The notes beneath the pieces were generated by a model. It did no database searches. It was given only the letters and a program-made list of their open reading frames with translations, and was not told the DNA's origin. Shown here in pieces: positions 28,575 through 30,460 of a stretch of DNA of 64,000 bases. Made by a program: the position numbers and the translations under genes. Numbering within the stretch: the first letter of the stretch is position 1; every line of letters starts with the position of its first letter. The stretch lies in sequence record ON528727, one strand, 5' to 3'. The stretch is from Shigella phage ESh17.

Positions 28575-29603
28575 ATGTCATCAATACCTTGGATTGATAA
28601 TGAGTTTGCATACCGTGCATTAGCTCATTTACCTAAATTCACACAAGTAAATAATAGTTCAACTTTTAAATTACGGTTTAGATGCCCTGTTTGTGGAGAT
28701 TCAAAAACCGACCAGAATAAAGCTCGTGGATGGTATTATGGTGATAATAATGAAGGAAATATTCATTGTTATAACTGTAACTATCATGCACCAATCGGAA
28801 TATATTTAAAGGAGTTTGAACCTGATTTATATCGTGAGTATATCTTTGAAATAAGAAAAGAAAAAGGTAAAAGTCGTCCAGTAGAAAAACCTAAAGAACT
28901 TTCTAAACAACCTGAGAAGAAAATAATTAAATCTCTTCCGTCATGCGTTAGATTAGATAAACTGGCGGAAGACCATGCAATTATAAAATATGTAAAAGCT
29001 CGTTGTATTCCAAAGGATAAATGGAAATATCTTTGGTTTACAACTGAATGGCCTAAATTAGTTAATAGCATAGCACCGGGAACATACAAAAAGGAAATAC
29101 CTGAGCCTCGTCTTGTTATTCCAATTTATAATGCTAATGGAAAAGCTGAGTCTTTTCAAGGACGTGCATTAAAGAAAGATGCTCCCCAAAAATATATCAC
29201 CATCAAAGCTTATCCTGAGGCAACAAAAATATATGGAGTCGAACGAGTTAAAGATGGTGATGTATATGTTCTAGAAGGACCTATAGATTCACTTTTTATT
29301 GAAAATGGTATAGCTATTACGGGTGGTCAATTAGACCTAGAAGTTGTTCCATTTAAAGATAGACGAGTGTGGGTTTTAGATAATGAACCTCGTCACCCTG
29401 ACACTATCAAACGAATGACTAAATTAGTTGATGCAGGAGAAAGGGTTATGTTTTGGGATAAATCTCCCTGGAAATCAAAAGATGTCAATGATATGATTAG
29501 AAAGGAAGGTGCAACCCCTGAACAAATTATGGAATATATGAAAAATAATATTGCCCAGGGGTTGATGGCTAAAATGCGGCTATCTAAATATGCCAAGATT
29601 TAA
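28575..29603 (+). CDS. 61: DNA primase gp61
   Basis: 342 aa; N-terminal zinc ribbon CPVCG ... CYNC; Toprim EGPIDS. Confidence 0.88.
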   Translation: MSSIPWIDNEFAYRALAHLPKFTQVNNSSTFKLRFRCPVCGDSKTDQNKARGWYYGDNNEGNIHCYNCNYHAPIGIYLKEFEPDLYREYIFEIRKEKGKSRPVEKPKELSKQPEKKIIKSLPSCVRLDKLAEDHAIIKYVKARCIPKDKWKYLWFTTEWPKLVNSIAPGTYKKEIPEPRLVIPIYNANGKAESFQGRALKKDAPQKYITIKAYPEATKIYGVERVKDGDVYVLEGPIDSLFIENGIAITGGQLDLEVVPFKDRRVWVLDNEPRHPDTIKRMTKLVDAGERVMFWDKSPWKSKDVNDMIRKEGATPEQIMEYMKNNIAQGLMAKMRLSKYAKI

Positions 29604-29800
29604 ATTAACCCAACTAAAGCAAATGCTAGATCTACGAATGTATCAAGAGTAACTACTGGAATATTAACACCATGCGCAATTGCAATTGGTGATAAAATAA
29701 AGTTCCAGAGTAAAATTCCTACCATAGCAGAAATAGTAAAAGCTATACGTTTTTTATTACCTTTTATGGCATTAACAAGTGCCATTAATTTTTGTACCAT
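29600..29800 (-). CDS. small membrane protein, convergent with gene 61
   Basis: 66 aa, two hydrophobic segments; strong ribosome-binding site (AAGGAGG, 4 nt, ATG) on the minus strand; 3' end overlaps the gene 61 stop by 4 nt. Confidence 0.5.
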   Translation of the reverse strand: MVQKLMALVNAIKGNKKRIAFTISAMVGILLWNFILSPIAIAHGVNIPVVTLDTFVDLAFALVGLI

Positions 29801-29829
29801 ATGTCCTCCTTTAAATTAATATTTATCGC

Positions 29830-29880
29830 AAATTTCACAAATTTGTTTACTTTCTCAGCTTGTTATGGTATTATAAAATA
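29830..29880 (+). promoter_or_regulatory. T4-type early promoter
   Basis: GTTTAC 29845-29850, 18-nt spacer, TATTAT 29869-29874. Confidence 0.55.
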
Positions 29881-29899
29881 AATTGCTGAGGATGATATA

Positions 29900-30460
29900 A
29901 TGATTAATAAAATTGTACATGAAATGGCTTTAAACGGAGATTCATATAAAATATCTGCCGTAGTTGAAAATTTCATACTTAATAAAGTAAAAGAATATTT
30001 CACTGATTGTTCAGTTAGTTATCAAGAAAAAATGGTTTTAACCGATGATACTGAAAAATCAAATAATTTGTTTTGCTCGAATTTTATAACTAAGAAGCGT
30101 ACTAGACGATTTGATATTGTTATTTCTCGCAACGGTAAAAAGCATATAATTGAAATTAAACACCAAGTTGGTGGAGGTACAGCTATTGATTCTGTTGGAA
30201 TATATTTAGAAGATAAAGAGAAATTAAAAGAATACACAAAAACTGAAAACCCTGTATCATTGATGATATTAGATTTTTTGCCATGCGGATATTATCCGCG
30301 TAATAAATGGACAAAAAGAGAATCATTTACTGATAATCCAACTATTCAGGCGAGGTTTAATGAATATGCTAAATCGCAAAACGTGTTAGTATTACTATCA
30401 AATACATATGATGATGAATTGTATAATTCATTTTTTGCTGCAATAAATGAGAGAATATAA
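29900..30460 (+). CDS. candidate PD-(D/E)xK-type nuclease (186 aa)
   Basis: Motif FDIVIS ... IIEIKHQ (D ... E-x-K); stop overlaps the dam start (TAATG). Confidence 0.45.

What the first reader, a model, noticed from the sequence alone, without database searches (positions are those of the whole stretch)
29600..30460. Two-gene segment between primase 61 and dam: PD-(D/E)xK-like ORF abutting dam plus a convergent membrane mini-protein
I do not recall any gene between 61 and dam in T4, so this roughly 0.86 kb segment looks like an insertion relative to that reference. It holds (i) a 186-aa ORF with a D ... E-x-K arrangement (FDIVIS, then about 10 residues, then IIEIKHQ) typical of PD-(D/E)xK nucleases, behind its own early promoter and ending in a TAATG overlap with dam, and (ii) a 66-aa two-helix membrane protein on the opposite strand with a near-perfect ribosome-binding site (AAGGAGG-4nt-ATG), overlapping the gene 61 stop. 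A nuclease candidate translationally coupled to a GATC methyltransferase invites the question of whether it is a cognate or relic restriction endonuclease, another type of nuclease, or a mobile-element remnant. The antisense small membrane gene is unusual in a region otherwise transcribed in one direction.
Basis: partly seen in the sequence, partly recalled or inferred. Interest (0 to 1): 0.72.

Follow-up and report, generated by a model that had tools for sequence, protein, structure and literature searches.

The report
Restriction-like nuclease partnered with phage Dam
Just upstream of this T2-like phage's GATC methylase gene lies a strongly conserved restriction-enzyme-like nuclease gene that travels with that methylase in every T4-like phage that has it, and that T4 lost through a 548-base deletion; the small opposite-strand gene beside it is a separate, conserved membrane-protein gene that is unannotated in T4.

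Summary
They are not one unit, and the segment is not an insertion relative to T4.

**186-aa ORF (29900-30460).**
- D72, E85 and K87 are invariant down to 32% identity.
- pN/pS is 0.02.
- In six diverged lineages, at three different genome positions in T4-like phages, it sits directly upstream of a T4-type Dam gene, abutting or overlapping its start, and the two proteins diverge in parallel.
- Compared with T6-type phages, promoter, nuclease and dam form one clean 1427-bp cassette (29812-31238).
- T4 keeps dam and the last 80 nt of the nuclease gene. The other 548 bp were lost between two ATCGCAAA repeats.
- Three other phages carry independent lesions in the nuclease gene with dam intact.
- Best reading: the R half of a restriction-modification-type pair, which makes T4's "orphan" Dam a decayed cassette. 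Cleavage specificity is untested, and DpnII-family membership is sub-threshold.

**66-aa minus-strand ORF (29600-29800).**
- It is a backbone gene present in about 500 Tequatrovirus records, including T4 and T6.
- dN/dS is 0.15-0.3, and it has paralogues in another genus.
- A rare late-promoter-like ATAAATA motif lies upstream.
- Its function is unknown.

The parts
28575..29603 (+). Gene 61 DNA primase. This is conserved backbone and forms the left context.
   Evidence: 342-aa ORF. It aligns with T4 gene 61 and is annotated as DNA primase in all related records.
29600..29800 (-). 66-aa small membrane protein gene (PHROG 2024). It is a backbone gene, not part of the cassette, and its stop codon overlaps the gene 61 stop.
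   Evidence: - PHROG 2024 match at E 1.5e-31.
- The first 212 nt of the finding are present in about 500 Tequatrovirus records, including T4, T2 and T6.
- dN/dS is 0.15-0.3; variable sites fall 8/2/12 by codon position.
- Paralogues occur in Gaprivervirus P479 (two tandem copies) and in metagenomic relatives, with a conserved LWN..P.A..G....VT motif.
- Hydropathy shows a basic N-terminal segment followed by hydrophobic segments at about residues 19-41 and 49-66.
29766..29785 (+). Terminator-like hairpin followed by a T run, lying inside codons 6-12 of the small ORF. It is a possible terminator for gene 61 transcripts.
   Evidence: Pattern scan. A terminator is annotated in this region in the Yersinia phage fPS-65 record. 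Not tested.
29805..29827 (-). Expression signals of the small ORF: Shine-Dalgarno AAGGAGG (29805-29811) and a late-promoter-like GATAAATA (29820-29827).
   Evidence: - Read directly from the sequence.
- ATAAATA occurs only 9 times on both strands of the 64-kb window.
- Yet an ATAAATA also lies upstream of the ORF in T6-type phages (AATAAATA) and in P479 (CATAAATA), in non-homologous DNA.
- The late-promoter consensus TATAAATA is taken from memory.
29812..31238 (+). The 1427-bp variable cassette (promoter + nuclease gene + dam). It is absent from T6-type genomes.
   Evidence: In T6, locus positions 2712 and 2713 are contiguous and correspond to window positions 29811 and 31239. 183 phage records carry dam, against about 506 that carry the flanking small ORF.
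29845..29874 (+). Early-promoter-like element of the cassette: GTTTAC, an 18-nt spacer, then TATTAT preceded by TGG.
   Evidence: Sequence and scan. A phiSITE promoter is annotated at the equivalent position in JB75. It is deleted in T4 and retained in KarlGJung.
29900..30460 (+). 186-aa PD-(D/E)xK nuclease gene (PHROG 8706), the putative R partner of Dam. Catalytic candidates are E23, D72, E85 and K87.
   Evidence: - AF2 model: pLDDT 78, pTM 0.79.
- Invariant residues listed.
- pN/pS 0.02.
- Weak profile hits: DpnII, BanI and REase_II.
29825..29832 (.). Left copy of the 8-bp direct repeat ATCGCAAA, the T4 deletion end point.
   Evidence: T4 has one copy, and the 548 bp between the two copies are missing.
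30373..30380 (.). Right copy of the 8-bp direct repeat ATCGCAAA, the T4 deletion end point. T4 retains the DNA downstream of it, which is the last 80 nt of the nuclease ORF.
30460..31239 (+). dam, a T4-type GATC N6-adenine methyltransferase and the M partner.
   Evidence: Pfam PF02086 at E 1.4e-50. TIGR00571 dam at E 1.6e-68.
31240..31263 (+). Right junction of the cassette: TTGCTTATA...TATAAT, a MotA-box-like middle promoter for gene 56. It is homologous to the T6 sequence that directly follows the small ORF.
   Evidence: Junction sequences. The MotA-box consensus is taken from memory. Not tested.

Best explanation
The finding covers two unrelated genes.

**1. The 186-aa ORF.** It is a functional PD-(D/E)xK endonuclease and the conserved partner of the T-even Dam methyltransferase. 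Together with their own early promoter, the two genes form a 1.4-kb restriction-modification-type cassette that has moved as a unit among T4-like phages.

The most likely mechanism is inferred, not shown:
- The nuclease is made early from the cassette promoter, and its translation is coupled to that of Dam.
- It cuts GATC-containing DNA that lacks Dam methylation, meaning cytosine DNA from co-infecting or competing elements, or from hosts without Dam.
- The phage's own DNA is protected by N6-methyladenine and by glucosyl-hydroxymethylcytosine.
- The nuclease gene is dispensable and is repeatedly lost while dam is kept. T4's 'orphan' dam is one such decayed cassette.

**2. The 66-aa minus-strand ORF.** It is a conserved small inner-membrane protein gene of the phage backbone. 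It is probably transcribed late from an ATAAATA-type promoter, antisense to the end of gene 61. Its function is unknown; a role at the envelope late in infection is a guess.
For: **Nuclease: fold and catalytic residues**
- AF2 model with pLDDT 78 and pTM 0.79, and the topology of the restriction-endonuclease core.
- E23, D72, E85, K87, H88, Q89 and G93-T-A-I-D-S98 are invariant in 8 homologues down to 32% identity.
- Strong purifying selection: 14 synonymous against 1 non-synonymous difference, pN/pS 0.02.

**Partnership with Dam**
- The nuclease gene lies directly upstream of a D12-class methyltransferase, abutting or overlapping its start, in every context recovered:
  - the window, T2 and JB75;
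  - metagenomic relatives at 55%, 49%, 35% and 41% identity;
  - Klebsiella phage KPV15 at 43%.
- These represent three different genome positions: between 61 and 56, between denB and ndd, and upstream of rIIA.
- The two proteins diverge in parallel: nuclease 55/49/43/35/41% against methylase 73/64/62/54/52%.
- The whole cassette is one clean indel relative to T6.
- The nuclease was never seen without dam. dam without the nuclease arises through visible lesions: the 548-bp deletion in T4, a 363-bp deletion in KarlGJung, and a frameshift in G4500.
- The best family-level sequence matches are to restriction enzymes: Pfam DpnII in 4 of 8 members (best E 8.3e-5), PADLOC REase_II at E 9.2e-5, and hhalign against a DpnII alignment at E 4.9e-4 over the catalytic core.
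- One GenBank record already labels the gene 'putative DpnII restriction endonuclease'.

**Small ORF**
- establish conservation and purifying selection.
- One search shows how rare ATAAATA is in the window, and gives the hydropathy profile.
Against: - No cleavage activity or specificity is known, and nothing here tests whether GATC is the target.
- DpnII-family membership is sub-threshold (16.7 bits against a cut-off of 23; hhalign probability 32%). The protein also lacks the roughly 130-residue N-terminal part of DpnII.
- The usual hosts are Dam-positive, so a methylation-sensitive GATC enzyme would find no target in host DNA. That leaves its benefit unclear.
- The family has no detectable bacterial relatives: only 12 hits among 1.84 billion representative proteins, and all of those with recoverable context come from T4-like phages. 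This is unusual for a horizontally mobile restriction-modification system.
- GATC depletion (O/E 0.34) is just as strong in T6, which lacks the cassette, so it is not specific evidence.
- From memory, T2 dam-minus, glucosylation-minus mutants are viable. If so, Dam is not needed for self-protection as long as hydroxymethylcytosine is present.
- For the small ORF, the promoter matches the late consensus at only 7 of 8 positions, and no expression data were found.
Confidence: 0.6

Rival explanations
1. The 186-aa protein is a selfish homing-type endonuclease. It would cut the empty 61/56 junction, or another specific site, in related phages that lack it, and so drive its own spread by recombinational repair, with dam carried along as cargo.
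For: - The 61/56 intergenic site is a hot spot for free-standing homing endonucleases. GRNsp7 has a 216-aa 'homing endonuclease' at exactly this site, and segF follows gene 56 in T4 and P479.
- The cassette shows clean presence/absence polymorphism.
Against: - The nuclease is tied to Dam rather than to a site. The pair occurs at three unrelated loci and the two proteins co-diverge.
- Its best structural and profile matches are Type II restriction enzymes, not known homing-endonuclease families.
Confidence: 0.12
2. The nuclease is methylation-dependent. It would cut Dam-methylated GATC in cytosine DNA (host or competitor), while the phage's own hypermodified cytosines protect it. Dam would then mark the targets rather than protect them.
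For: - The family is confined to T4-like phages with no bacterial relatives, as expected for a pair that would be suicidal in ordinary DNA.
- The hosts are Dam-positive, so this reading gives the enzyme an abundant target.
- In KPV15 the pair sits between denB and ndd, which are host-DNA shut-off genes.
Against: - There is no similarity to DpnI-type or other methyl-directed families. The only family-level hits are to methylation-sensitive enzymes (DpnII, BanI).
- The protein has no extra methyl-reading domain; at 186 aa it is a single nuclease core.
- The gene order, coupling and decay pattern are those of classical restriction-modification pairs.
Confidence: 0.1
3. The 186-aa protein is a nuclease-fold protein with a different role linked to Dam. 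It could be a MutH-like nickase for phage repair or recombination-primed replication near oriA, or a non-catalytic DNA-binding regulator of dam.
For: - MutH is a PD-(D/E)xK enzyme that reads GATC methylation (from memory).
- oriA lies nearby in T4.
- Loss of the gene in T4 has no known phenotype.
Against: - The catalytic triad is invariant, which argues against a non-catalytic role.
- In KPV15 and L011 the pair is far from the 61/56 region.
Confidence: 0.1
4. The 66-aa minus-strand ORF is not translated. Its conservation would reflect the gene 61 terminator and bidirectional promoter signals.
For: - A terminator-like hairpin lies inside it.
- It is unannotated in T4 RefSeq.
- T6 has ATT in place of the ATG start.
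Against: - dN/dS is 0.15-0.3.
- Synonymous sites are saturated between paralogues that keep 30-70% amino-acid identity and the same hydrophobic pattern.
- The gene is duplicated in tandem in P479.
- A strong Shine-Dalgarno sequence is present in every lineage.
Confidence: 0.05

Closest known systems
MunI / EcoRI-like Type IIP restriction endonucleases
   Same: - D...E-x-K on adjacent strands, plus a glutamate in the first long helix.
- The E-I-K-H-Q string resembles EcoRI's E-A-K-H-Q (from memory).
   Different: - Only 14% sequence identity.
- No sequence-level hit to any PDB chain, and no Pfam EcoRI match.
- Different partner methyltransferase and presumably a different target.
DpnII / MboI restriction-modification system (R.DpnII with the Dam-class methylase DpnM, target GATC)
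   Same: - The partner methylase is of the same D12/Dam class with GATC specificity.
- The DpnII profile is the best-scoring sequence family for the nuclease.
- The alignment pairs the helix glutamate, RFD-VI and -IE- core motifs.
- The lists of structural neighbours overlap.
   Different: - Scores are below the family threshold.
- The protein lacks the N-terminal 130 residues of DpnII.
- DpnII has E-V-N where this family has E-I-K.
- MunI ranks 1st for this protein but 38th for the DpnII model.
- Specificity is untested.
T4 Dam, the textbook 'orphan' phage methyltransferase
   Same: It is the same gene at the same locus. The T4 sequence upstream of dam is the 3' end of the nuclease ORF.
   Different: T4 has lost the promoter and the first 158 codons of the partner nuclease. 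About 80% of dam-carrying Tequatrovirus records still have the nuclease gene.
Free-standing homing endonucleases of T-even phages (SegF and relatives)
   Same: - They occupy intergenic sites between conserved genes in the same region.
- They show presence/absence polymorphism.
- They decay repeatedly.
   Different: - Different fold family.
- This nuclease always travels with a methyltransferase.
- The pair is found at several loci.
Small membrane proteins of T4 (Imm, RI, Ac and others; from memory)
   Same: The 66-aa protein is small, has a basic N-terminus followed by hydrophobic helices, and is specific to T4-like phages.
   Different: No sequence similarity to any named family was detected. 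It lies on the opposite strand within an early gene block, and no phenotype is known.

Membership tests
PD-(D/E)xK nuclease superfamily | Alpha-beta-beta-beta-alpha-beta core fold | tested here: met
   [not shown]
PD-(D/E)xK nuclease superfamily | Acidic residue on strand 2 and (D/E)-x-K on strand 3, conserved across homologues | tested here: met
   D72 (in FDIVI) and E85-I-K87 (in IIEIKHQ) are invariant in 8 sequences down to 32% identity. E23 in helix 2 is also invariant.
PD-(D/E)xK nuclease superfamily | Metal-dependent phosphodiester cleavage | not testable with these tools
   Needs biochemistry.
Type II restriction-modification system | Endonuclease gene adjacent to a DNA methyltransferase gene, with the linkage conserved through divergence | tested here: met
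   The nuclease gene directly abuts or overlaps a Dam gene in six lineages at three loci.
Type II restriction-modification system | The two genes evolve and move as a unit; the endonuclease is not found without its methylase, while orphan methylases arise by endonuclease decay | tested here: met
   - Parallel divergence of the two proteins.
- A single 1427-bp indel relative to T6.
- Four independent lesions in the nuclease gene with dam intact.
- No copy without dam was seen in any inspected locus. The full set of about 150 records was not checked one by one.
Type II restriction-modification system | The endonuclease cuts the sequence that the methylase modifies and is blocked by that modification | not testable with these tools
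   Inferred only. GATC depletion (O/E 0.34) is lineage-wide, also occurs in cassette-less T6, and so is not diagnostic.
DpnII restriction endonuclease family (Pfam PF04556) | Profile match above the curated threshold | tested here: not met
   - 16.7 bits against a gathering score of 23.
- 4 of 8 family members hit, best E 8.3e-5.
- hhalign against a DpnII alignment gives probability 32% and E 4.9e-4, over the core only.
DpnII restriction endonuclease family (Pfam PF04556) | Full-length architecture of about 280 residues, with an N-terminal helical region before the nuclease core | tested here: not met
   Residues 11-97 align to DpnII residues 140-226. There is no counterpart of DpnII residues 1-139.
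Free-standing homing endonuclease | An endonuclease gene that moves on its own into a specific intergenic target | tested here: not met
   It is always accompanied by dam, and the pair sits at three different loci. The presence/absence polymorphism at a hot spot is met.
T4 late gene (applies to the 66-aa ORF) | TATAAATA late promoter a short distance upstream | tested here: inconclusive
   - GATAAATA at 29820-27 (minus strand) matches 7 of 8 positions.
- ATAAATA occurs only 9 times in 128 kb of both strands.
- It recurs upstream of the ORF in T6-type phages and in P479, in non-homologous DNA.
- No transcript data were found.
PHROG 2024 / PHROG 8706 (uncharacterised phage protein families) | Full-length profile match | tested here: met
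   The 66-aa ORF matches PHROG 2024 at E 1.5e-31. The 186-aa ORF matches PHROG 8706 at E 1.3e-115. Both families are annotated 'unknown function'.

The most novel reading that the evidence does not exclude
Dam and the nuclease could form an offensive pair that is viable only in phages with hypermodified cytosine. The nuclease would cut Dam-methylated GATC in ordinary cytosine DNA, while glucosyl-hydroxymethylcytosine shields the phage. This would give T-even Dam a function for the first time and would explain why the nuclease family has no bacterial relatives.

A milder variant is also open. In it, the cassette is a weapon between co-infecting T-even phages, and it contributes to the three-fold GATC depletion seen across the subfamily.
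Probability: 0.1. Interest if true: 0.85.

Novelty: new member of a known kind. Interest (0 to 1): 0.58.

Why it matters
- **Origin of T4 Dam.** T4 Dam is the standard example of an orphan phage methyltransferase, and its biological role has never been clear. Here most dam-carrying relatives, including T2, keep a strongly conserved restriction-like nuclease coupled to dam, and T4 lost it through a recognisable microhomology deletion. That recasts dam as half of a restriction-modification-type cassette.
- **A testable question.** What does a restriction-type nuclease do for a virulent phage whose own DNA is already hypermodified and whose hosts are Dam-positive? Candidate answers are competition between co-infecting phages, attack on Dam-less hosts, or selfish persistence.
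- **An annotation gap.** T4 carries a conserved 66-codon membrane-protein gene between dam and 61 that is missing from its reference annotation.

Tried and rejected
- **Sequence search of all PDB chains**, with the single protein and with the family profile, found nothing even at E 10.
- **AFDB Foldseek library** was not available.
- **NCBIfam** gave only noise.
- **DpnII membership.** I rebuilt a DpnII alignment from a recalled sequence. The recall was checked: 335.7 bits to PF04556, and 99-100% identity to pneumococcal DpnII entries. hhalign gave only 32% probability. An AF2 model of DpnII (pLDDT 69) has overlapping but not identical structural neighbours. I therefore left DpnII membership as not established.
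- **GATC depletion** looked like support for a GATC-cutting enzyme. It is equally strong in T6 and in other cassette-less relatives, so I rejected it as specific evidence.
- **The Klebsiella KP15/KP27 paper** reports cytosine DNA fully Dam-methylated, which could have excluded the methyl-dependent rival. However, those phages are not among the carriers of the nuclease; KPV15 is a different genus.
- **Literature.** Seven searches found no study of the ORF upstream of T2 dam or of the small ORF. Miller et al. 2003 and Miner & Hattman 1988 are not held.
- **'Insertion relative to T4'** is rejected because of the remnant and the direct repeats.
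Full report
**What is there.** The window is a T2-like Tequatrovirus; the best full-length matches over this region are 97.8% identical. On the + strand the order is:
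- gene 61 primase (28575-29603);
- an early-promoter-like element (29845-29874);
- a 186-aa ORF (29900-30460);
- dam (30460-31239);
- gene 56 (31283-31816).

A 66-aa ORF lies on the minus strand at 29600-29800. The nuclease motif residues are D72, E85 and K87, not 92/105/107.

**Relation to T4, T2 and T6.**
- *T4.* T4 has a 309-bp gap between dam and 61 in which nothing is annotated. Alignment shows that the gap contains the intact 66-aa ORF and the last 80 nt of the 186-aa ORF. The window has ATCGCAAA at both 29825 and 30373. T4 has a single copy and lacks the 548 bp between them. T4 is therefore a microhomology deletion derivative, not the ancestral empty state.
- *T6.* T6 positions 2712 and 2713 are contiguous and correspond to window positions 29811 and 31239. 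So 29812-31238 (promoter, nuclease and dam; 1427 bp) is one clean indel.
- *Counts.* About 506 phage records carry the small ORF, 183 carry dam, and about 148 Tequatrovirus records plus 6 Klebsiella phage records carry the nuclease gene. T2 has it. Part of it has sat unannotated in the 1988 T2 dam GenBank entry.

**The 186-aa protein.**
- *Family.* It belongs to PHROG 8706, function unknown. Relatives are few: 10 in the 5.8-billion-protein index, and 12 in an exhaustive profile search of 1.84 billion representatives.
- *Conserved residues.* Alignment down to 32% identity leaves E23, R69, D72, K81, H82, E85, K87, H88, Q89, G93-T-A-I-D-S98, P118, S120, D125 and G130 invariant.
- *Sequence profiles.* Only sub-threshold hits, all to restriction enzymes: Pfam DpnII (16.7 bits against 23; 4 of 8 members, best E 8.3e-5), BanI, and PADLOC REase_II (E 9.2e-5).
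- *DpnII comparison.* A profile-profile comparison with a DpnII alignment gives E 4.9e-4 but only 32% probability. It covers the catalytic core only, and the protein lacks DpnII's N-terminal 130 residues. I therefore call it a restriction-type PD-(D/E)xK nuclease, and I do not file it in the DpnII family.
- *Selection.* Where the gene is intact it is under very strong purifying selection: 14 synonymous against 1 non-synonymous change, pN/pS 0.02, compared with 0.13 for dam.

**Link to Dam.** Every homologue whose context could be recovered lies immediately upstream of a T4-type Dam gene, abutting or overlapping its start (TAATG, TAAATG, ATGA and similar). The contexts are all T4-like phages, but they fall at three different positions:
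- between 61 and 56 (this window and the 55%-identical metagenomic relative);
- between denB and ndd in Klebsiella phage KPV15;
- directly upstream of rIIA in locus L011.

Nuclease and methylase identities fall in parallel: 55/49/43/35/41% against 73/64/62/54/52%.

The nuclease gene is lost repeatedly while dam stays:
- the T4 548-bp deletion;
- a separate 363-bp microhomology deletion in KarlGJung (Bas37) that removes residues 1-121;
- a 1-bp frameshift in G4500;
- a 1-bp deletion in T2 that alters the last few residues.

This is the pattern expected of a restriction-modification gene pair that decays into an orphan methylase. One GenBank submitter has already labelled the gene 'putative DpnII restriction endonuclease'. 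I found no published analysis.

**Mechanism: shown and inferred.**
- *Shown:* the nuclease fold, the conserved catalytic residues, purifying selection, obligatory linkage and co-divergence with Dam, cassette mobility, and recurrent loss.
- *Inferred:* that it cuts GATC, and that Dam methylation blocks it.

The inference has a difficulty. The hosts are Dam-positive and the phage DNA is hypermodified, so the natural target is unclear. Candidates are co-infecting dam-less relatives, other phages and plasmids, or Dam-less hosts.

GATC is the most avoided 4-bp palindrome in the window (68 observed against 202 expected). The same is true of T6, which lacks the cassette, and of other relatives, so this is not specific support.

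The rivals are a homing-type selfish nuclease, a methylation-dependent nuclease that uses Dam to mark cytosine DNA, and a MutH-like or regulatory role. None is excluded. Each fits the linkage, fold and family-hit data less well.

**The 66-aa ORF.** It lies outside the cassette, on the conserved gene 61 side.
- *Distribution.* It is present in T4, T2, T6 and about 500 records. In Gaprivervirus P479 it occurs as two tandem copies, and a 63-aa form occurs in the divergent metagenomic relative.
- *Selection.* Within Tequatrovirus dN/dS is 0.15-0.3. Between paralogues the synonymous sites are saturated, while 30-70% of residues and an LWN..P.A..G....VT motif persist. It is a real protein-coding gene.
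- *Protein features.* It has a basic N-terminal segment, a clear transmembrane helix (about residues 19-41) and a second hydrophobic C-terminal segment.
- *Promoter.* Upstream on the minus strand is GATAAATA (29820-29827). ATAAATA occurs only 9 times on both strands of the window. Even so, AATAAATA in T6-type phages and CATAAATA in P479 occupy the same position in otherwise non-homologous DNA. That points to a late promoter. The consensus is from memory and nothing has been tested.
- *Function.* No family, structure or paper gives a function.

**Verdict.** The nuclease interpretation is supported, and it is sharpened to a Dam-partnered restriction-type enzyme carried on a mobile cassette. The 'insertion relative to T4' and 'two-gene segment' readings are wrong. 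The nuclease is a new, uncharacterised member of a known kind of system in an unexpected carrier. It gives T4's orphan Dam an origin and makes the old question of what T-even Dam is for experimentally approachable.

Noticed in passing
whole window 1-64000; L018 (T6 1-50000): GATC is the most depleted 4-bp palindrome: 68 observed against 202 Markov-expected (O/E 0.34). The depletion is the same in T6 (0.33), which has neither dam nor the nuclease, and in short loci from other T4-like genera.
   Followed up: partly
whole window, both strands; 29820-29827 (-): The late-promoter core ATAAATA occurs only 9 times in 128 kb of both strands, although ATAAAT occurs 121 times. One of the nine copies lies 8 nt upstream of the Shine-Dalgarno sequence of the 66-aa ORF.
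   Followed up: partly
L001 (T4 NC_000866 17626-17934): The T4 reference annotation has no feature between dam and 61. Yet the intact 66-codon ORF, with its AAGGAGG ribosome-binding site, is there, so this looks like a missing gene call.
   Followed up: yes
L012 (T6) 2699-2701: In T6 the start codon of the small ORF is ATT instead of ATG. The record annotates a shorter product starting from the Met at position 6.
   Followed up: no
L014 (Salmonella phage GRNsp7) 2772-3422: A 216-aa 'homing endonuclease' gene occupies exactly the 61/56 intergenic site that holds the nuclease-dam cassette in this window. segF follows gene 56 in T4 and P479. This junction is a hot spot for selfish nuclease genes.
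   Followed up: partly
L015 (Gaprivervirus P479) 2262-2462 and 2471-2668: There are two tandem, diverged copies of the small membrane-protein gene (32% identical to each other) downstream of gene 61 on the opposite strand.
   Followed up: partly
window 29766-29785 (+): An 8-bp-stem hairpin followed by a T run (terminator-like) lies inside codons 6-12 of the small ORF. It could terminate gene 61 transcripts, and on the other strand it could fold the 5' end of the small ORF mRNA.
   Followed up: no
L020 (KarlGJung/Bas37) 901-1086; L021 (G4500); L002 (T2) 2322: Independent lesions in the nuclease gene, with dam intact in each case:
- a 363-bp deletion between GATGATAT repeats (window 29899-30261);
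- a 1-bp deletion at window 30027;
- a 1-bp deletion at window 30431 that gives T2 a different C-terminus (181 aa).
   Followed up: yes
window 31240-31263 (+); L012 2713-2740: Directly after the dam stop is TTGCTTATA...TATAAT, which resembles a MotA-dependent middle promoter for gene 56. In T6-type phages the homologous ATTGCTTTA box abuts the ribosome-binding site of the small ORF, giving a compact divergent control region.
   Followed up: no
window 28050-28406 (+): The ORF in the gene 61.2 position is 118 aa here, and the same in Salmonella phage Lv5cm. The T4 61.2 gene spans 627 nt. This is another length polymorphism in the region.
   Followed up: no
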